Assembly (NCBI GenBank): GCA_038321975.1
Contig: JBBQFM010000015.1
Coordinates: 5,786-69,785 of the forward strand
Source: Fimbriimonadales bacterium
Lineage (GTDB): Bacteria; Armatimonadota; Fimbriimonadia; Fimbriimonadales; Fimbriimonadaceae
Direction of reading: 5' to 3'
Length of the DNA stretch: 64,000 nt
A program made the position numbers and the translations under genes. The notes below the pieces were generated by a model. The model had not been told where the DNA came from and made no database searches. It worked only from the letters and a program-made list of their open reading frames with translations. Of this stretch, positions 1-10,588 are shown piece after piece. Each line of letters starts with the position of its first letter. Position 1 is the stretch's first letter.

Positions 1-1519
1 TCCGGTGCCAAGGCGTGGTCAAGTTCCAGAGAATTGCCAGCGAAATCCCCGTCGCCAACCGAAGCAAGATGGTCGCCGCGAGTGTCAATCCGGTCGAAGA
101 CATCCCGAGTAAAAGGGTGGGCCCCGGCTGGAATGCAAGCGGAATCGCAATGATCATCCCGAAGAAGATCACCGCCCCACCGACGCGTGTCACGAAATCG
201 CCCATTGGCACCTGAGATGCCGCCGCCGCAACAAGCCCCGCGAAAAGAAGACCTGAGAGCGTAAGCGGAGACTGCGCCAGCCCAGTAGCAACCAAAGCGC
301 TCAGGAACCCAATCGCCTTGGCCGTGGGATGAATGGATTGAAGAAATCCCTTTGATCGCGCAACCGTCTCGGAGGCGATTGTCTTGGCGATCGCACCGCG
401 CATCTTCAAGACGGTCGCCTCGAACCAAGAAGTCTTTAGGGGTGCCGCTCGACCCAATGCGACAGGACCTTCGCGAAGCCAAGCTGGCAGATCCGAAGAT
501 GCCCTCTCAATCGGTCGCTGGTCGACCGCCTCAACGCGAGGCTTTCGAAGAATGCCCCGAGTGAAGAGTGCCACCGCGCCACAACCGACAAGGGCACTGA
601 ACAAATAACCCGCGATCTCCCACGGCCTGCCACTCATGCCGGCAAAGCCGTAGTCGGGCAGAAGGGGCTTGATAATCTCGTGTGCGTTCGCCGCACCCTG
701 AGGAACATAGCCGACCAACTTCTTCAAGTCCTCAACATCCCACTCGCCAAACGCACTGCCCGTCGCGAGCAATCCAAGGGGAGTGAGAACTAGAACCCAA
801 GCCAGGCGTTTAACCAGCCGGTTGGTGACCCCAACCTTGGGTCGAGCCCGCGCCCCAAGCAACTCCGGGAAGGTTCGCCAGAGATAGCTGAGCGCCGCCA
901 CCGTGACGATCGCCTCAACCGGCGAGGCGGTCAAGAGGTGAGTCATCACCATCGCGGGCAACGTCACGTTCAGACCAAAAGGACAATACAAAGCGTGCCC
1001 AAGCACGTCGTGGGCAACCAAAGGCTGGATACCCAGGAGCAGCCCGGCACAAACCGAAGCCATCGTGGTGCCCGAGTAACCGGCGATCGCCGAAGCAACC
1101 AGCCATCGACCCGATCCGATCTCGCTTCGCCCGGAGATCAACCGAAACACGCCGTAGCCAACAAACGTCGCCACCAGCGCCATGTCGAAGCAGTTGGCCC
1201 CAAGAGACAAAATGCCCCCATCGCCAAACATCAAAGCTTGGATGGCCAAGGTCAGGGTCATTCCCAGCAGCGCCGCCCAAGGCCCCACCAAAATCGCGAG
1301 AAGCACCGCGCCAAGCGCGTGTGCCGTCGTCCCGCCGACTGCGGGAACGTTGAACATCTGGATTGCAAAGCAGAACGCAGCGCCGATGGAGAGCAGTGGC
1401 ATCTGCCGCGACGTAAGTTCGGCCGATGTCTTGCGAGCGGCGATGACCCAAACCGGCACCATCACACCCGCCATGACGGCTTCGGTGGCGGGGCTCAGAT
1501 ACGCGTCGGGGATATGCAT
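1..1519 (-). CDS. ECF-type Ni/Co transporter fusion: NikM/CbiM + PDGLE (NikN-like) + NikQ/CbiQ; 3' end runs off the window
   Basis: Not in the ORF track because it has no stop in the window. Translated by hand from ATG 1519 to position 2 with no stop (>505 aa). Starts MHIPDAYLSP, has GGTTAH67ALG and QALMFGDGGILSLGAN (CbiM/NikM), then FGEW...PLLPDYGF (PDGLE-like), then FLQSIHPTAKAIGF...LAILWNLTTPWHR (CbiQ-like). Confidence 0.9.
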   Translation of the reverse strand, partial: MHIPDAYLSPATEAVMAGVMVPVWVIAARKTSAELTSRQMPLLSIGAAFCFAIQMFNVPAVGGTTAHALGAVLLAILVGPWAALLGMTLTLAIQALMFGDGGILSLGANCFDMALVATFVGYGVFRLISGRSEIGSGRWLVASAIAGYSGTTMASVCAGLLLGIQPLVAHDVLGHALYCPFGLNVTLPAMVMTHLLTASPVEAIVTVAALSYLWRTFPELLGARARPKVGVTNRLVKRLAWVLVLTPLGLLATGSAFGEWDVEDLKKLVGYVPQGAANAHEIIKPLLPDYGFAGMSGRPWEIAGYLFSALVGCGAVALFTRGILRKPRVEAVDQRPIERASSDLPAWLREGPVALGRAAPLKTSWFEATVLKMRGAIAKTIASETVARSKGFLQSIHPTAKAIGFLSALVATGLAQSPLTLSGLLFAGLVAAAASQVPMGDFVTRVGGAVIFFGMIIAIPLAFQPGPTLLLGMSSTGLTLAATILLRLATGISLAILWNLTTPWHR

Positions 1520-2957: not shown

Positions 2958-3572
2958 CTATCGAGGATTGCCGAGGTAAGGGAAGGCGCCGAGGAAATGC
3001 TTGCCACTCGCGTCCACGTTATCCGACGTGAAAGCCGCGATCTCGTGGCCGTCGTCCGGTGCAAGGCCGAGAGCGGAGATCGTGTTTCCAAACACCACAC
3101 CTAGTGAGATGTCGACCACGTCATCGCCAAGCTTTCGCCCGCCGAACTTGCCGCCCGTGGCTCCGTTCGTTTCAGAGCCCAAATAGGCTGCCGAATCAGA
3201 CTTAGAAAGGTCAACTTTCATCATGTCGGGGACGAGAACTGCCTTGACCACATCGGTGGTTGCCTGATCTCGACCCGCCGTGCCGACCATGAACGACTGA
3301 ATGTCGTTCGCCAGCTCGTTGTGGTCGTTGCTTGGGCCGTCCTCGTCGTTGATCTTGTGGCGGTTGTTTGCAACCGTTGCGAAGACCTCATTGACGACTG
3401 GTCGGGCAAGACGGTCAACTTGGGTGTACGCGCCGCCATTGAGGGTGCTCGTAGTGGTCCAGACGCCGATGACCCCGAGGTTGCGGCTAGAGCCGCCACC
3501 GCTACCCGCGCATCCGGCAAGGACTCCGACGAACGGGATGACGACCCAGAGATTTTTGGATAGGTTCTTCAT
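2958..3572 (-). CDS. DUF4331 C-terminal-half lipoprotein, copy 2
   Basis: Lipobox VLAGC, QVDRLARPVVNEVF, GGRKLGDDVVDISL, FPYLGNP. Paralog of 4446..5084. Confidence 0.85.
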   Translation of the reverse strand: MKNLSKNLWVVIPFVGVLAGCAGSGGGSSRNLGVIGVWTTTSTLNGGAYTQVDRLARPVVNEVFATVANNRHKINDEDGPSNDHNELANDIQSFMVGTAGRDQATTDVVKAVLVPDMMKVDLSKSDSAAYLGSETNGATGGKFGGRKLGDDVVDISLGVVFGNTISALGLAPDDGHEIAAFTSDNVDASGKHFLGAFPYLGNPR

Positions 3573-4252
3573 TAGAGCAGCTTCTTCGGCAGTTCGATCA
3601 CGATCGAAAGCACGTTGTAGTTATGAGTCGAGAGGAAGTCCTGGGCAGCGCCCGGAGCGCGCCAGCCACCCGCTTTGGGGGTGTTGGGATCGGCAATCGG
3701 CGTTCCCGTAATGGGTGTCGCTCGGTCCGGGAAGATCGTGAAGAACTGCTCAAGGTCGAAGAAGAACGGATCCTCTCGGCCGCCGCAGAACACCTTCATG
3801 CCACTGCGAGGCGAAAACGTCGAGTTGATCGCGCCAATCGTCGTGTGCGGGCTCTCGAAGTGAGTCGTGGTTCCCGTCGACGAAGGGTGGACGGGGCCCG
3901 CAATCTGCACCGTCTGGTTCGCACCCGTGCCCGAGAATTTGGCTTGGATGACTTCATCCTCAACTCCGTCACCGTCCCTGTCGATCTTGAACTGATAGAG
4001 CACGTTCGGGTCGAATGAGACGGCAGTGCCTTGTCCCGCGGCAATGAGCGGGTGAACGTTCATCGCGAACACTACATTGCCTGAGGTGGTTGGGCTGGGG
4101 AAAACGTAAACGTCGGTGATGTCGGTGCCCGGGTTGGCCGCGATATCCGGCGTGTCCGCGTGGTCGGAAGCATGGCTTCGTCCAATCAGTACCACTGGGA
4201 CCGCCAGTGCGACTAGCCCAACTAGGGCGAGTCTCTTAATGTTTAATATCAA
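3572..4252 (-). CDS. DUF4331 N-terminal-half exported protein, copy 2
   Basis: TTG start, signal peptide ending SHA, then SDHADTP...TDITDVYVFPSP, YQFKID, GREDPFFFDL. Confidence 0.85.
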   Translation of the reverse strand: MILNIKRLALVGLVALAVPVVLIGRSHASDHADTPDIAANPGTDITDVYVFPSPTTSGNVVFAMNVHPLIAAGQGTAVSFDPNVLYQFKIDRDGDGVEDEVIQAKFSGTGANQTVQIAGPVHPSSTGTTTHFESPHTTIGAINSTFSPRSGMKVFCGGREDPFFFDLEQFFTIFPDRATPITGTPIADPNTPKAGGWRAPGAAQDFLSTHNYNVLSIVIELPKKLL

Positions 4253-4396
4253 CTTGGTAACTCCTGTTCAGGGGCAACTGCCCTTTGTATTGCCGAGGCA
4301 GAAGTAAATCTTCTTAGCCCCGCTCTGCTTCGACCATTGTTGCGCAGACTTGTTCCCACTTTGGAGCCAAATCGGCACTGTTCATGTAAACGTCAT
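4253..4396 (-). promoter_or_regulatory. Conserved leader/upstream region of DUF4331 pair copy 2
   Basis: Aligns with 5765..5904. Identical 17-mer GTTCATGTAAACGTCAT at 4380-4396; hairpin GGGCAGTTGCCC just upstream of a CAGGAG Shine-Dalgarno on the minus strand. Confidence 0.6.
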
Positions 4397-4445
4397 TCAG
4401 GTCAGATGCCCCGGGGTAGGGTTCCGGGGCAGCGTGAGGGCGTCC

Positions 4446-5084
4446 CTAGTAAGGGTTGCCGAGGTAAGGGAACGTGTTCAGGTAGTGGTGACCACTCGCG
4501 TCCACGTTGTCGGTTGTAAAGGAAGCGAGTTCCTTTCCGTCGTCGGGAGCAAGACCCAAGGCCGAGATCGTGTTTCCGAAGACGATGCCAAGCGAGATGT
4601 CCACGACGTCGTCGGTGAGCTTGCGCCCGCCGAACTTGCCGCCGGTTGCTCCGCCGGTCTCAACGCCCAGATAGGCAGCCGGACCGCTCTGGGAAAGGTC
4701 GACCTTCATCACGTCAGGGATGACCACTGCCTTCACCACGTCGGTCGTCGCTTGCGACCGACCGGCGGGGAAGGTCATGAACCCTTGAATGTCGTTAGCC
4801 AACTCGTTGTGATCGTTCGCAGGTCCGTCCTCATCGTTGATCTTGTGTCGGTTGTTAGCAACCGTCGCAAAGACCTCGTTGATTACGGGTCGAGAGAGTC
4901 GATCGACCTGGACATACTTGCTTCCGTTGAAGTGGTTCGTGGTCGTCCAAACTCCGATAACGCCCTGGGTGATGCCGCGAGGGTTGCCGCCACCTGCAAG
5001 CGGGGCGCTTCCGCCACCGCAGCCGGCGAGGATAGCGCCCACTACAGGTACGAAGACGCCAAGATTCTTGATACTTGATTTCAT
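4446..5084 (-). CDS. DUF4331 C-terminal-half lipoprotein, copy 1
   Basis: Lipobox ILAGC, QVDRLSRPVINEVF, GGRKLTDDVVDISL, FPYLGNPY. Confidence 0.85.
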   Translation of the reverse strand: MKSSIKNLGVFVPVVGAILAGCGGGSAPLAGGGNPRGITQGVIGVWTTTNHFNGSKYVQVDRLSRPVINEVFATVANNRHKINDEDGPANDHNELANDIQGFMTFPAGRSQATTDVVKAVVIPDVMKVDLSQSGPAAYLGVETGGATGGKFGGRKLTDDVVDISLGIVFGNTISALGLAPDDGKELASFTTDNVDASGHHYLNTFPYLGNPY

Positions 5085-5764
5085 TAGAGGAGCCTCTTCG
5101 GAACTTCGATCACGATCGATAGAACGTTCAGTTTGTTAACGGTGAGGAAGTCCTTAGCCGCTCCCGGAGCTCGCCAACCGCCCGCCTTGGGCGTGTTAGG
5201 ATCGGCAACCGGAATCCCGTTGAGCGGGGTCGCCCGATCTGGGAAGATCGTGAAGAACTGCTCGAGGTCGAAGAAGAAAGGATCTTCTCGGCCGCCCGCA
5301 AAGACCGTCATACCGGGAGTCGGCGAGAAAGGCTTGTTGATCTCTCCCGTGACGCTGTAAGGTTTCTCGAGGTTGTTGGCAGTTCCCGTCGTGCTCGGAT
5401 GAACCGGGCCCGAGATCTGAACCTTCTGGGCCAGACCGGCATAGAAGAATTTGGCCTGCATGACCTCGTCCTCCACCCCGTCTCCGTCGGTGTCGATCTT
5501 GAACTGATAGATGATGTTTGGGTCGAACCGAGTGGTCTTCCCCTTTCCAGCTCCGACGAGCGGGTGGACGTTCATTGCGAACACCACGTTCTCGGAATTG
5601 GTCGGGCTCGGGAATACATAGACATCGGTAATGTCGGCGCCGGGATTCGCCGCGATGTCGGGGGTATCGGCATGGTCCGAAGCATGACTTCGGCCGACGA
5701 GAATGATAGGCACGGCAAGTGCGACTAACCCGATAAAGGTCAACCTCTTAATATTTAGGATCAA
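5084..5764 (-). CDS. DUF4331 N-terminal-half exported protein, copy 1
   Basis: Start reassigned to TTG 5764, giving the same length and N-terminus as 3572..4252. Motifs SHA-SDHADTP and GREDPFFFDL. Confidence 0.85.
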   Translation of the reverse strand: MILNIKRLTFIGLVALAVPIILVGRSHASDHADTPDIAANPGADITDVYVFPSPTNSENVVFAMNVHPLVGAGKGKTTRFDPNIIYQFKIDTDGDGVEDEVMQAKFFYAGLAQKVQISGPVHPSTTGTANNLEKPYSVTGEINKPFSPTPGMTVFAGGREDPFFFDLEQFFTIFPDRATPLNGIPVADPNTPKAGGWRAPGAAKDFLTVNKLNVLSIVIEVPKRLL

Positions 5765-5904
5765 TAGATTCTCCTGATTGGGGCAACTCCCCTTTGAACT
5801 GCTACGGGGCAAAGTAATCCTCTACCCTCGCTACGCATCGACAATTGTCGCCCAGCAAAGACCGCAATGAAGCGGCATTGCCGCCGAGTTCATGTAAACG
5901 TCAT
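5765..5904 (-). promoter_or_regulatory. Conserved leader/upstream region of DUF4331 pair copy 1
   Basis: Aligns with 4253..4396; identical 17-mer at 5888-5904. Confidence 0.6.
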
Positions 5905-6136: not shown

Positions 6137-6268
6137 TGAAATAGAGTTCCGGAGTGAAGGCCTCGCCTGAAGCAAACCGTAGCGGCAGCGCGAAGTACGG
6201 GCGACCCCCGGGTCCAGTCGATGAAGCTTCGCTCAACCCTTTGCCTTTGGCCAACGTAAACTTTGTCT

Positions 6269-7027
6269 ATGGTTCTCGGTCTTGTTGCTTCCCTCGTTCT
6301 CAGCGGTCAGTCCTCAGTCAACCTCGTCTACAAGCCGCCCCTCCATAAGACCCTCAAGTACCGAATGGTCATGGACATGAAGCAGGACATGGGAGCAAGC
6401 GGGAATTTTGGATCCAAAACTCAAATGGATATGGAGTTAACCGCGACGAGCCGCAAAGGCGATGTTACGACCCTCCTCACAAAGATCACCGACGCAAAGG
6501 TAACCACCCCTCCCGGCAGTCCGATGGCTGGGATGTCGAGCCAGATGGAAAAGAGCATGAAGGGCAAGAGCTATACGTCCTCCATCGACTCTCACTTCAA
6601 GCCTCTCACAATTGGTGGCTCCGAAGTGGCCGGCATGTCGGGCCAAGGCATGGCAGACGCAATGCACAGTTTCACCTTCCCCTCGCGGCCCGTCAAAGTG
6701 GGGCAGACCTGGACGAGCAAGATGGACATGGGCAAGATGATGGCTTCGGTCGCGAAAGGAATGAAGGTCACCTCCAACGTCCCCATCGTGTGTCGTCTCG
6801 TTTCCGTTCAAGGCAATCTTGCCACCATCAGCATGACCATGAAGGGGGCCATGAACATGGACATGGGCGCCCAGAAATTCACCACCGACCTCGACTCAAA
6901 GGGCTCGATGGTCGTCGAACTCGGGAGCGGAGTGGTCCGCAGCGAACAGAACGTGATGGACTCCACTTCGAACATAGGCACCACGAAGTTCAAGCAGCAC
7001 ATGGTCCAAACCATGAAGCTCCGTTAA
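6269..7027 (+). CDS. Methionine-rich exported beta-sheet protein (DUF6263-like)
   Basis: Signal-like N-terminus, L.YKP..G..KY pattern and FPSRPVKVGQTW. Hand count 28 Met in 252 aa. Confidence 0.75.
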   Translation: MVLGLVASLVLSGQSSVNLVYKPPLHKTLKYRMVMDMKQDMGASGNFGSKTQMDMELTATSRKGDVTTLLTKITDAKVTTPPGSPMAGMSSQMEKSMKGKSYTSSIDSHFKPLTIGGSEVAGMSGQGMADAMHSFTFPSRPVKVGQTWTSKMDMGKMMASVAKGMKVTSNVPIVCRLVSVQGNLATISMTMKGAMNMDMGAQKFTTDLDSKGSMVVELGSGVVRSEQNVMDSTSNIGTTKFKQHMVQTMKLR

Positions 7028-8419: not shown

Positions 8420-10588
8420 ATGCGGCCACTTTGCATATTTCTCTTTCTTGCCAGCTTTCTAATTTCCGCAGCCGACGAAGATCCCGGACACTCTAGTCAC
8501 GGATCCGCGTTTGATTCCGGCATGCGCACCCGCCCCTGGGTGATGAAGGGAATCGGCGATACGCCATTCCCGATCACGGCGAAGAATCCCGAGGTCCAGA
8601 AGTGGTTCGACCAGGGCAACGCCCTGCTTCACTCCTTCTGGTTCGAGGAAGCCGAGCGTTCTTTTCGCTGGTGCCTCAAGCTCGACCCCGATTGCGCCAT
8701 GGCCTACTGGAGCCTGTCTCGCTGTGGCCTGAACTGGTTCACCATGCGCTCGCCGAATTTCGACGACAAGGAGTTCGATCGCTACAAGGCGTTCCTCAAA
8801 GAAGCGGTCCGACGCAAAGACAAGGTCACCGAGCGTGAGCGAATGTACATCGAGGCGTGGGAGAAGGCGACCGCTCCCGACCAGAAAGAGCATGTAAAGA
8901 CCCTCGATCGAGAACTCCAACGGATCGTCGTCAAGTACCCCGACGATGTCGAAGCCAAAGCGTTGCTCGCCTTGTTCAATATCCATGAGGGCAGCGCCTA
9001 TGCCAACCAACTGATCGTGGATCAGGTCCTAGCCAAGAACCCTCTTCATCCCGGTGCGCATCACGCCAGCATTCACAATTGGGACGGCGTCTCGTCAGAA
9101 CAGGCGATTAAGAGCTGCGAACTGTACGGCAAGTCCGCACCAAACATCGGGCACGCCCTCCATATGCCCGGTCACATCTACAGCAAGTTGGGAATGTGGC
9201 ACGAGGCGGCGATCGCGATGGACTCGGCAACCCGCATCGAGCTCGGCTACATGAACGACCGGCTCGCCCTGCCGTTCGAGAACTGGAACTACCCCCACAA
9301 CCGCAACTACCTCTGCTACATCCAAGAGCAACTCGGAATGGCCGAGAACTCCCTTCAGGGTGCCCGCGACATGATCGCCACCCCGCGCGATCCAGACCTC
9401 AATCCTAACGCAATCGCCTCCCAAGGCTACGACGCCCTGCTCCGCGCCCTCATCAAGTTCGAAAAGTGGGACGAGATCCTCAAACCGGGAGTAGTCGAAT
9501 GGGACGAAAAGGGCGATGACGGCAAGCTTGATCGGGCTATCTCTGAGACGCTCGCCTACAACGGGCTCGGCCGAATGACCGAGGCAAAGGAGCGACTCGC
9601 TGACGTCAAAGGGCTGCTCGTCAAAATCAATGGTGGAAAGACCGGCGAGGCAATTTCCACCGATGTGATGGCCACCGTTGCCGAAGGCCTCATCTCACTT
9701 TCCGAAGGTCACTTGCTAGAAGGCCAACGATCCCTGCTCAACGCATGCGATCAAGAGCAGAAGAAGCGAGACGAGGGTCATTTTCAAAACGACCCACCCA
9801 GCCAGCCCTGGCCCATCATGCGTCTCCTTGGCGACCACTATCGCAAACGAGGCGAGACCAAGCTTGCCATCGAGTGCTACGAGCGAGCGCTGAAGAACGA
9901 GCCCAATGATGGCTTCACCCTCTCCGGCCTGTCCCTCGCCTATCACGACCTGGGCAACCAAGAGCAAGCAACCCACTATGCGGGCCGCCTAGAGTACGTC
10001 TGGTCTCAAGCTGACTCCCATCTCAAGTGGCTCGAAGACGTGCGAAAGATCGTGCCCCAGGCAGTGCCCATTGGCGAGACCCCGGCAAAGGAAAGGGTGT
10101 ACCAGCCCAAGAACCTCGACCCGATTGGCCCAATGAATTGGCAACCGTTCACCGCCCCGAAGCTGCAAGTGCTGAACGTCAAAGGCAAACCGGTCTCGCT
10201 CACCGACTACAAAGGCAAAAACGTCCTCCTCATCTTCTTCCTCGGCGACGCCTGCGTTCACTGCGTGGGCCAGCTTAAGGCGATCAACGAGCGAGGCACC
10301 GACTTCGCCGCCCAAGACACCGTCGTCCTCGCCGTCTGCAGCTCGACCCCCACGAAGATCAAGGAGTCGGTTGCCCTGGAGAAAGTCAACGTCACCTTCC
10401 TCTCCGACACCGCCCACGAAAACGCCCGCCGATTCTCGTCCTACGACGATTTCGAGGACATCGAACTCCACTCAACCATCCTTATCGACAAGCAGGGAAA
10501 GGTGCGATGGAAGCGAACCGGGGGCGATCCGTTCACCAACATCGACTTCCTCGTCGGCGAACTCAAGAGGATCAACGGCGCGAAATAG
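8420..10588 (+). CDS. Exported TPR protein fused to a C-terminal AhpC/TSA (redoxin) domain
   Basis: Signal peptide; QKWFDQG...HSFWFEEAERSF, HPGAHHASIH, HALHMPGHIY; C-terminal VSLTDYKGKNVLLIFF..DACVHCV. Confidence 0.85.
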   Translation: MRPLCIFLFLASFLISAADEDPGHSSHGSAFDSGMRTRPWVMKGIGDTPFPITAKNPEVQKWFDQGNALLHSFWFEEAERSFRWCLKLDPDCAMAYWSLSRCGLNWFTMRSPNFDDKEFDRYKAFLKEAVRRKDKVTERERMYIEAWEKATAPDQKEHVKTLDRELQRIVVKYPDDVEAKALLALFNIHEGSAYANQLIVDQVLAKNPLHPGAHHASIHNWDGVSSEQAIKSCELYGKSAPNIGHALHMPGHIYSKLGMWHEAAIAMDSATRIELGYMNDRLALPFENWNYPHNRNYLCYIQEQLGMAENSLQGARDMIATPRDPDLNPNAIASQGYDALLRALIKFEKWDEILKPGVVEWDEKGDDGKLDRAISETLAYNGLGRMTEAKERLADVKGLLVKINGGKTGEAISTDVMATVAEGLISLSEGHLLEGQRSLLNACDQEQKKRDEGHFQNDPPSQPWPIMRLLGDHYRKRGETKLAIECYERALKNEPNDGFTLSGLSLAYHDLGNQEQATHYAGRLEYVWSQADSHLKWLEDVRKIVPQAVPIGETPAKERVYQPKNLDPIGPMNWQPFTAPKLQVLNVKGKPVSLTDYKGKNVLLIFFLGDACVHCVGQLKAINERGTDFAAQDTVVLAVCSSTPTKIKESVALEKVNVTFLSDTAHENARRFSSYDDFEDIELHSTILIDKQGKVRWKRTGGDPFTNIDFLVGELKRINGAK

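What the first reader, a model, noticed from the sequence alone, without database searches (positions are those of the whole stretch)
1..1519. NikM + PDGLE + NikQ/CbiQ in one uninterrupted ORF, missed by the ORF track
Seen: no stop in frame from ATG 1519 to the window edge, with S-component, PDGLE and T-component motifs in one chain; Met1, His2 and His67 are present. Established: in the NikM2 structure Ni is held by Met1, His2 and His67, and ECF S and T components are usually separate polypeptides. Inference: an uncommon S-N-T fusion, with the nikO/cbiO ATPase probably just outside the window. The MHIPD start favours nickel.
Basis: partly seen in the sequence, partly recalled or inferred. Interest (0 to 1): 0.65.

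Follow-up and report, generated by a model that had tools for sequence, protein, structure and literature searches.

The report
Single-chain NikM-NikN-NikQ nickel/cobalt ECF importer
The three membrane parts of a nickel/cobalt uptake pump, normally two or three separate proteins, are here joined into one real 623-residue protein; the fusion recurs in four soil-bacterial phyla, is not unique, and could help structural work on this transporter class.

Summary
The minus-strand frame from ATG 1519 has no stop up to the window edge. On the contig it runs on to a 623-aa protein with three domains: CbiM/NikM (aa 2-220), PDGLE/NikN (240-323) and a complete CbiQ/NikQ T component (392-594). A 252-aa ABC ATPase gene follows and overlaps it by 11 nt.

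It is not an assembly artefact:
- More than 120 homolog clusters at 37-69% identity keep the same architecture.
- At least 57 of 401 Armatimonadota genomes have it in one frame.
- Single-ORF fusions also occur in Acidobacteriota, Actinomycetota and Chloroflexota.
- An M-domain tree needs at least 5 gains or losses.

The "linker" is the native N-terminal tail of NikQ, so the fusion is a lost stop between coupled genes.

All metal-site residues and both T-unit arginine signatures are conserved. The AlphaFold model matches TtNikM2 (TM 0.93) and EcfT/CbiQ.

Nickel is favoured over cobalt (about 60:30). The M domain is NikM2-like, N is the PDGLE type, and there is no B12 riboswitch and no corrin synthesis. 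However, this genome shows no known nickel enzyme.

It is a modestly interesting new variant of a known kind. The fused proteins are already in databases, labelled "CbiM".

The parts
1..1519 (-). nik(MNQ) fusion gene. The part inside the window encodes aa 1-506 of 623. The gene continues 353 nt beyond the left window edge, to the stop at contig C15:5433-5435. nikO (C15:4685-5443, minus strand, 252 aa) follows with an 11-nt overlap, then a DUF4440 gene (C15:4215-4691, minus strand).
845..1519 (-). M domain (aa 1-225), the CbiM/NikM S component. It carries the Met1-His2 N-terminus, His67 and the supporting residues T65, Q94, G101, G102, N109, H194 and E202.
   Evidence: Pfam CbiM 175 bits. 220 bits to TtNikM2 4M58. 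Foldseek TM 0.93, rmsd 2.1 A to 4M5B. Residues checked.
530..844 (-). N domain (aa 226-330), PDGLE/NikN-type. Two predicted TM helices (231-249 and 298-324) flank an acidic extracytoplasmic segment with an invariant G-E-W and P-D-Y.
   Evidence: Pfam PDGLE 33.3 bits against a cut-off of 27. Invariant columns. Helices. Charge distribution.
347..529 (-). The apparent linker (aa 331-391), which is the native cytoplasmic N-terminal tail of NikQ. It holds the conserved L-P-x-W motif (aa 344-347, window 479-490) and an amphipathic helix (aa 365-388).
   Evidence: Stand-alone NikQ proteins of unfused operons begin with the same motif and helix. P345 and W347 are invariant or nearly so. The region 325-397 has 13 K/R, which fits a cytoplasmic location.
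2..346 (-). Start of the CbiQ/NikQ T-component domain (aa 392-506 inside the window; the domain runs to aa 594). The coupling helices with the signatures A544-R545-T546 and S586-R587-G588 lie beyond the window edge.
   Evidence: Pfam CbiQ 104.9 bits. It is the only CbiQ-family gene in the genome. TM 0.69-0.77 to EcfT/CbiQ chains. The arginines are invariant. The signatures are defined in PMC3246461.
1526..2902 (-). TPR protein gene. Its stop lies 6 nt upstream of the nik(MNQ) ATG, so it is probably co-transcribed.
   Evidence: The orthologue sits at the same position in F. ginsengisoli. A TPR homolog lies beside the fused transporter in Bryobacterales locus L027.
2958..4252 (-). Split DUF4331 pair a. 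The N-half gene is 3572-4252; its signal peptide ends ...SHA and is followed by SDH. The C-half lipoprotein gene is 2958-3572.
   Evidence: Pfam DUF4331, profile positions 1-97 and 221-421. Same pair in F. ginsengisoli.
4446..5812 (-). Split DUF4331 pair b, a tandem paralogue of pair a. The N-half ORF is 5084-5812 at most and the C-half is 4446-5084.

Best explanation
This is a functional two-gene, group-I (dedicated) ECF-type ABC importer for Ni(II), possibly Ni(II)/Co(II). One 623-aa chain carries three parts. The first is the substrate-capture S component (NikM), which binds the metal in a square-planar four-nitrogen site formed by the Met1 amino group, the His2 backbone and side chain, and His67. 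The second is the auxiliary two-helix N component (PDGLE/NikN), whose extracytoplasmic loop sits over that site. The third is the scaffold T component (NikQ), whose two cytoplasmic coupling helices dock a homodimer of the downstream ATPase NikO. ATP binding and hydrolysis by NikO2 would drive toppling of the M domain against the Q domain, as in CbiMQO. The only difference is that S, N and T are held at a fixed 1:1:1 ratio by covalent links. The fusion arose when the stop codon between translationally coupled nik(MN) and nikQ genes was lost. The 'linker' is simply NikQ's own cytoplasmic N-terminal tail. Shown here: the ORF, the domains, the conserved ligands and coupling motifs, the folds, the adjacency of the ATPase, the conservation and recurrence of the fusion, and the origin of the linker. 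Inferred: the transport activity, the direction of transport, the metal preference, and that the chain stays uncleaved.
For: ORF and domains. ATPase adjacent, overlapping by 11 nt. More than 120 clusters of 600-720 aa with the same architecture, down to 37% identity. At least 57 of 401 Armatimonadota genomes have M through Q in one stop-free frame. Single-ORF fusions also occur in Acidobacteriota (L021, L026, L027, L035, L046), Actinomycetota (L025, L029, L030, L034, L042) and Chloroflexota (L032). The M-domain tree needs 6 label changes, at least 5 of them forced by well-supported branches. About 44 fused representatives at the 50% clustering level. Metal ligands and H-bond network conserved. 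T-unit Arg signatures invariant. AlphaFold model with pLDDT 83.6 and pTM 0.78. It matches TtNikM2 (TM 0.93) and EcfT/CbiQ (TM 0.69-0.77). This is the only CbiQ-family T unit in a 97%-complete genome, so NikO has no other partner. The linker equals the NikQ N-tail, and gene gaps in unfused operons are -44 to +27 nt in nine of ten loci. The K/R distribution fits the required topology. For nickel over cobalt: 220 against 57 bits to NikM2 and CbiM; PDGLE-type N rather than CbiN (classification in PMC2667541); no cobalamin riboswitch before this operon or before any of 22 fused homologs; no CbiC; 20 of 31 other fused-gene Armatimonadota genomes encode [NiFe]-hydrogenase; and in Bryobacterales a NicO-family Ni/Co permease lies beside the same DUF4331-TPR module and a fused transporter.
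Against: No transport, expression or protein-level data exist. This genome has no urease, [NiFe]-hydrogenase, LarC or NikR, so no nickel client or nickel regulator is identified. Within the same family, carrying the fused gene does not track with hydrogenase: 0 of 4 carriers (plus this genome) against 1 of 20 non-carriers. TtNikM2 binds cobalt as well as nickel, and CbiMNQO systems also move nickel (PMC3945884), so sequence cannot settle the metal. The hydrogenase comparison is confounded by phylogeny.
Confidence: 0.88

Rival explanations
1. The architecture and mechanism are the same, but the physiological substrate is cobalt, or cobalt and nickel equally. That would make it a Cbi-type importer serving non-corrin cobalt enzymes.
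For: NCBIfam names the best-matching models 'cobalt transporter CbiM', and NF008873 scores above its cut-off. TtNikM2 co-crystallises with Co with no structural change, and the Cbi and Nik systems overlap in substrate (PMC3945884). No nickel enzyme or NikR was found in this genome.
Against: There is no CbiN domain, only PDGLE. No cobalamin riboswitch precedes this or any of 22 fused loci. There is no CbiC, so no de novo corrin synthesis. The genome's only cobalamin riboswitch precedes a pilin-like and a DUF4465/PEP-CTERM gene, which suggests B12 capture rather than synthesis (the B12-binding role of DUF4465 is from my memory). The M domain is about four times closer in bit score to NikM2 than to CbiM.
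Confidence: 0.28
2. The fusion is an assembly or sequencing artefact, for example a missed stop or a frameshift between nik(MN) and nikQ in a draft genome.
For: The genome is a draft of 85 contigs. Unfused operons have tiny gene gaps, so a single-base error could mimic a fusion. Reads could not be checked.
Against: The same single frame occurs in the complete F. ginsengisoli genome (61% identity), in a same-genus genome at 68%, and in dozens of independent assemblies. The linker region is conserved at the protein level in frame.
Confidence: 0.01
3. The fused gene is a decaying or non-functional relic. Alternatively, it is cleaved after translation, so that the working transporter is the ordinary multi-subunit complex.
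For: The gene is patchy: only 5 of 14 genomes in the genus carry it. One same-genus copy (G269) has an in-frame TAA.
Against: Every functional residue tested is invariant across 105 fused homologs at a mean column identity of 48%. It carries the only T unit in the genome. The fusion has been kept across whole families. No cleavage motif or low-complexity spacer is present, and the linker is conserved NikQ sequence.
Confidence: 0.04

Closest known systems
Rhodobacter capsulatus / Geobacter Nik(MN)QO, an ECF nickel importer with a natural NikM-NikN fusion (PMC3945884; PMC545781)
   Same: It has the same components in the same order: M with the Met1-His2/His67 site, a PDGLE-type N fused to the C-terminus of M, then Q and O. 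It is also a dedicated group-I ECF module with a single ATPase gene. Most homologs found here have exactly this ~335-aa MN plus separate Q form.
   Different: Here Q is also in the same chain, so three membrane components form one polypeptide and the transporter is encoded by two genes instead of three. No NikR is present and there is no neighbouring nickel enzyme.
Thermoanaerobacter tengcongensis NikM2 (PDB 4M58/4M5B)
   Same: 52% identity over 213 aligned positions, TM 0.93, rmsd 2.1 A. All metal ligands and second-shell residues are identical.
   Different: TtNikM2 is a stand-alone S component. Its N, Q and O partners are separate proteins.
Rhodobacter capsulatus CbiMNQO / the CbiMQO structure (PDB 5X3X, 5X41)
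   Same: The overall S-T-A2 architecture and the presumed toppling mechanism are the same. The Q domain matches 5X3X_Q at TM 0.75-0.77.
   Different: The sequence relation is only distant: 57 bits for M and 23 bits for Q. CbiN is a different family from PDGLE, and it does not co-purify with CbiMQO (PMC7689651). Cbi operons typically sit in B12 clusters under riboswitch control, which is not the case here.
Known fusions in ECF transporters: A-A' in one chain, and M-N (PMC6828968; PMC3945884)
   Same: The principle is the same: neighbouring ECF subunit genes are joined.
   Different: I found no S-T fusion described in the literature I could search. The founding surveys, Rodionov 2006 and 2009, are not held, so an earlier mention cannot be excluded.

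Membership tests
CbiM/NikM S component of metal ECF transporters (PF01891) | Profile match above the curated cut-off | tested here: met
   175.4 bits against a cut-off of 23.1, aa 2-220, full profile
CbiM/NikM S component of metal ECF transporters (PF01891) | Unprocessed Met1-His2 N-terminus plus His67 as the four-nitrogen metal site, with T65, Q94, G101, G102, N109 and the H190/E198 equivalents | tested here: met
   All are present. H67, Q94, G101, G102, N109 and H194 are invariant in 105 fused homologs, and M1, H2, T65 and E202 are at least 90% conserved. The features are defined in PMC3945884.
CbiM/NikM S component of metal ECF transporters (PF01891) | S-component fold with the extra N-terminal helix | tested here: met
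   AlphaFold model against 4M5B: TM 0.93, rmsd 2.1 A
NikN / PDGLE auxiliary component (PF13190) | Profile match, and two TM helices around an extracytoplasmic loop | tested here: met
   33.3 bits against a cut-off of 27. Helices 231-249 and 298-324 flank an acidic loop. The model confidence here is only 56-89.
ECF T component (CbiQ/EcfT, PF02361) | Profile match over the whole domain | tested here: met
   104.9 bits against a cut-off of 25, profile positions 4-212 of 216
ECF T component (CbiQ/EcfT, PF02361) | Two three-residue signatures with a central Arg in cytoplasmic coupling helices (consensus Ala-Arg-Gly/Ser) | tested here: met
   A544-R545-T546 and S586-R587-G588 lie in helices 518-548 and 555-586. 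R545 and R587 are invariant. The definition is in PMC3246461.
ECF T component (CbiQ/EcfT, PF02361) | EcfT fold | tested here: met
   TM 0.69-0.77 to 7NNU_D, 4HUQ_T and 5X3X_Q
Group-I (dedicated) ECF transporter | S, T and A are encoded together, and the module is not shared | tested here: met
   The ATPase gene overlaps the fusion gene. This is the only CbiQ-family gene in the genome. No M, N or Q paralogues were found by tblastn.
Nickel-specific NikMNQO | NikN-type N component rather than CbiN | tested here: met
   PDGLE hit and no CbiN hit. The criterion is in PMC2667541.
Nickel-specific NikMNQO | NikR control, or co-localisation with urease or hydrogenase genes | tested here: not met
   NikR_C, urease alpha and the [NiFe]-hydrogenase large subunit are all absent from this genome. 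At family level, 20 of 31 other carriers have hydrogenase, but the test is confounded by phylogeny.
Nickel-specific NikMNQO | Measured Ni(II) uptake | not testable with these tools
   Needs a 63Ni uptake assay
Cobalt-specific CbiMNQO | CbiN component, B12 riboswitch control, or location in a cbi/cob cluster | tested here: not met
   There is no CbiN. No riboswitch lies near this or 22 other fused loci. CbiC is absent.

The most novel reading that the evidence does not exclude
In Fimbriimonas-like bacteria the single-chain Nik(MNQ)O importer works with dedicated extracytoplasmic partners encoded in the same operon. These are split DUF4331 proteins, whose predicted mature N-terminus is Ser-Asp-His (an ATCUN-type X-X-His Ni/Cu site), and a TPR protein. 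They would capture Ni(II) outside the membrane and hand it to the Met1-His2 site of the M domain. That would make this an ECF transporter with a binding-protein-like partner, which the ECF class is defined as lacking.
Probability: 0.3. Interest if true: 0.7.

Novelty: new variant of a known kind. Interest (0 to 1): 0.38.

Why it matters
ECF transporters are described as assemblies of separate S, T and A subunits. For the metal systems, the small N subunit binds so weakly that it has never been captured in a complex structure (PMC7689651).

- **A tool for structural work.** A natural, conserved chain that ties M, N and Q together at 1:1:1 is a ready-made construct. It could allow the complete metal ECF complex, including the N loop over the metal site, to be solved by cryo-EM.
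- **A mechanistic point.** The fusion has arisen or been lost at least five times and is kept across whole families. This is natural evidence that, in dedicated ECF systems, the S component need not leave the T scaffold during the transport cycle.
- **An annotation point.** These proteins are labelled 'CbiM' or 'CbiQ' in databases, which hides the fact that a two-gene locus encodes a whole transporter.

Tried and rejected
- **Assembly artefact:** rejected, because the architecture is conserved in independent assemblies, including a complete genome.
- **B12-riboswitch control:** none found near the operon or in 22 fused loci. The one hit, in L042, lies downstream of the transporter genes.
- **NikR control:** NikR is absent.
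- **Search for the metal's client enzyme in this genome:** urease, [NiFe]-hydrogenase, LarC and CbiC are absent. The Ni-SOD and nitrile hydratase searches found nothing, but their controls did not ring, so they are uninformative.
- **Inter-domain contacts in the AlphaFold model:** coordinates are not exposed to the Python box. Only the pTM, helix list and fold matches could be used.
- **A fusion-specific designed linker:** rejected, because the LPxW motif and the following helix are the normal N-terminus of stand-alone NikQ.
- **Literature on S-T fusions:** five full-text searches and six papers gave none. Rodionov 2006 and 2009 are not held.
- **The 17-bp motif shared by the two DUF4331 leaders** (ATGACGTTTACATGAAC): it is not a palindrome and does not resemble the published NikR boxes. 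I left it unexplained.

Full report
**Observation.** On the minus strand, the frame that starts at ATG 1519-1517 is open to the first base of the window: 506 aa, 3'-open. An ORF that runs off the source is listed only when open ends are allowed, which explains why an ORF track would miss it. The window is contig C15:5786-69785 of a 4.7-Mb, 85-contig, 97%-complete genome. I fetched the upstream 5.8 kb. There the frame continues to a stop at C15:5433-5435, giving a 623-aa protein.

**Domains and neighbours.**
- Pfam places CbiM at aa 2-220 (175 bits), PDGLE at 240-323 (33 bits against a cut-off of 27), and a complete CbiQ domain at 392-594 (105 bits, profile positions 4-212 of 216).
- A 252-aa ABC ATPase gene follows at C15:4685-5443. 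It overlaps the fusion gene by 11 nt.
- A DUF4440 gene with a signal peptide comes next.
- Upstream on the same strand, the stop of a TPR gene lies 6 nt before the ATG.
- Further upstream lie two tandem pairs of split DUF4331 genes.

**The fusion is real and conserved.** A word-indexed search returned more than 120 clusters of 600-720-aa proteins with CbiM+PDGLE+CbiQ, at 37-69% identity. They include the complete genome of Fimbriimonas ginsengisoli (636 aa, annotated 'cobalt transporter CbiM') and Chthonomonas calidirosea (654 aa).

In 401 genomes sampled across the phylum, 163 have a homolog. At least 57 of these have residues 1 to about 600 in one frame without a stop, across several families. 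Many others have only M-N fused, or all three separate. The gene is patchy: 5 of 14 genomes of the same genus carry it.

In a scan of one genome per species, tblastn joined adjacent genes, so I re-tested every locus for a single ORF. True fusions of 579-683 aa occur in:
- Armatimonadota;
- Acidobacteriota (5 loci);
- Actinomycetota (5 loci: Acidimicrobiia and Thermoleophilia);
- Chloroflexota (1 locus: Dehalococcoidia).

All other phyla in the list had the familiar ~335-aa Nik(MN) plus a separate Q.

An exhaustive HMMER search of 1.84 billion representatives found 2,221 family members at E<=1e-10. About 44 of the best 150 are at least 570 aa long. The fusion is therefore a minority form, roughly 2%, but it has many members.

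**Origin of the fusion.** A maximum-likelihood tree of the M domain (82 rows, quick search, SH-aLRT support) needs 6 changes of the fused/unfused label, and at least 5 are forced by well-supported branches.
- The 12 Armatimonadota rows form one all-fused clade (support 97).
- Four Acidimicrobiia rows form another (support 99).
- Fused Acidobacteriota and Dehalococcoidia sequences sit among unfused relatives from their own phyla.

Two caveats apply. The rows are the best-scoring hits, which favours fused sequences. Some 'split' states in metagenome bins could be frameshift errors.

The 60-aa 'linker' is not a spacer. Stand-alone NikQ proteins of unfused operons begin with the same L-P-x-W motif and the same following helix. 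In nine of the ten unfused loci examined, the gap between the MN stop and the Q start is only -44 to +27 nt; the tenth, L028, has +72 nt. Losing one stop codon is therefore enough to make the fusion, which explains its recurrence.

**Is it built to work?** Every feature I could test says yes.
- **Metal site.** Met1, His2, Thr65, His67, Gln94, Gly101, Gly102 and Asn109 are present, as are the equivalents of His190 and Glu198 of TtNikM2. They are invariant or at least 90% conserved in 105 fused homologs. Their roles are described in PMC3945884.
- **T-unit signatures.** T units are defined by two Arg-centred signatures in cytoplasmic helices (PMC3246461). Here they are A544-R545-T546 and S586-R587-G588, and both arginines are invariant.
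- **Fold.** An AlphaFold model built on 105 sequences has mean pLDDT 83.6 and pTM 0.78. Its M part superposes on TtNikM2 (TM 0.93, rmsd 2.1 A). Its Q part matches EcfT/CbiQ chains from folate, pantothenate and cobalt ECF complexes (TM 0.69-0.77).
- **Topology.** NikM is N-out, C-in (PMC3945884). The segment after M is K/R-rich, the PDGLE loop is acidic, and the segment 325-397 has 13 K/R. Four TM helices then precede the cytoplasmic coupling helices. The C-terminus of N and the N-terminus of Q therefore lie on the same, cytoplasmic side. This step is inference, because I could not inspect the model coordinates.
- **Only partner available.** The fused Q is the only CbiQ-family gene in the genome, so the adjacent ATPase has no other partner.

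The first nine residues are conserved in both NikM and CbiM, and TtNikM2 binds cobalt too. Other evidence leans towards nickel:
- The M domain scores 220 bits to TtNikM2 against 57 bits to R. capsulatus CbiM.
- The N domain is PDGLE/NikN-type, not CbiN (criterion in PMC2667541).
- No cobalamin riboswitch precedes this operon or any of 22 fused homologs.
- The genome lacks CbiC. Its single, borderline cobalamin riboswitch precedes pilin-like and DUF4465/PEP-CTERM genes, which suggests B12 capture rather than synthesis (the DUF4465 role is from memory).
- 20 of 31 other Armatimonadota genomes carrying the fusion encode [NiFe]-hydrogenase.

Against nickel:
- This genome has no urease, [NiFe]-hydrogenase, LarC or NikR.
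- Within the family, carriers have no hydrogenase either: 0 of 4, plus this genome.
- The hydrogenase comparison is confounded by phylogeny.

I put nickel at about 0.6, cobalt or a mixed substrate at about 0.3, and leave the rest to another metal or no function. The client enzyme is unknown.

**Operon partners.** The gene order DUF4331 pair - TPR - MNQ - O - DUF4440 is the same in F. ginsengisoli at 64-77% protein identity. More distant Armatimonadota have only MNQ-O.

Independently, a Bryobacterales locus has a fused MNQ-O next to a divergent operon. That operon encodes a full-length DUF4331, a TPR protein and a NicO-family Ni/Co permease.

Both DUF4331 N-halves here have a signal peptide ending ...SHA, followed by SDH. 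The predicted mature N-terminus would therefore be X-X-His, an ATCUN-type Ni/Cu motif. This is an inference from the -3/-1 rule, which I noted before consulting earlier notes. Earlier notes from this scan make the same suggestion for other genomes and for this window. They are unverified and not independent evidence. No paper mentions DUF4331. Secreted N-terminal-His proteins that feed nickel permeases have recently been described for other families (PMC12537917).

**Comparison with the known, and verdict.** The system works like Nik(MN)QO and passes every membership test for the S, N and T families and for a dedicated ECF module. It fails only the contextual criteria that assign nickel (NikR or a neighbouring nickel enzyme) or cobalt (CbiN, riboswitch).

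The new element is architectural: S, N and T are in one chain. I found no description of an S-T fusion in the literature I could search. The reviews I read mention only A-A and M-N fusions, and one states that importer core subunits are individual chains. The founding surveys are not held. The proteins are already in public databases under plain CbiM/CbiQ names.

I rate the finding as a new variant of a known kind, real and well supported. It is of modest interest in itself, with practical value for structural work on metal ECF transporters.

Noticed in passing
window 2958-5812 (minus strand): There are two tandem paralogous pairs of split DUF4331 genes. Each pair has an N-half with a signal peptide ending SHA|SDH (a predicted X-X-His mature end) and a C-half with a lipoprotein-type signal (..LAGC). 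The two genes of each pair are joined by an ATGA-type stop/start overlap. A Bryobacterales relative (L027) has the same domain unsplit, at 516 aa.
   Followed up: partly
window 4380-4396 and 5888-5904: An identical 17-bp motif (ATGACGTTTACATGAAC, read on the minus strand) lies in the leaders of both DUF4331 pairs. It is not palindromic. It may be a promoter or operator kept by the duplication.
   Followed up: partly
L027:558-5880 (Bryobacterales MAG): A divergent operon encodes an unknown 230-aa protein, a full-length DUF4331, a TPR protein and a 491-aa NicO-family (PF03824) protein with a DsbD_2-like region. It lies directly beside a fused MNQ-O transporter.
   Followed up: partly
contig C15:4215-4691 (minus strand, just outside the window) and L008:5416-5835: A secreted DUF4440/SnoaL-like protein is linked to the transporter in three genomes. 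It lies downstream of nikO here and in F. ginsengisoli, and directly upstream of MNQ in a Fimbriimonadaceae MAG. Its role is unknown.
   Followed up: no
contig C15:2442-2530 (L002 coordinates, outside the window): An ~89-nt near-perfect hairpin scores equally on both strands against a microRNA model (a chance family match). It lies in an intergenic gap and may be one of the hairpin repeat copies noted elsewhere in this genome.
   Followed up: no
genome G269, contig C2:209819-211663 (same genus): The orthologous MNQ frame carries one in-frame TAA. It is either a pseudogene, a secondary split or a sequencing error.
   Followed up: no
window 6263-7027 (+) and 8420-10588 (+): A Met-rich 254-aa protein is transcribed divergently from the DUF4331 operon. 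Further on is a 722-aa secreted TPR protein with a thioredoxin-like CxxC domain and an N-terminal His-rich stretch (GHSSHGS). Both could be metal-related.
   Followed up: no
contig C24:52509-52634 (L088 ~510-635): The genome's only cobalamin riboswitch (31.6 bits, at the cut-off) precedes a prepilin-type N-methylation protein, a DUF4465 protein with a PEP-CTERM anchor and an unknown 295-aa protein. This is a candidate B12-capture operon.
   Followed up: partly
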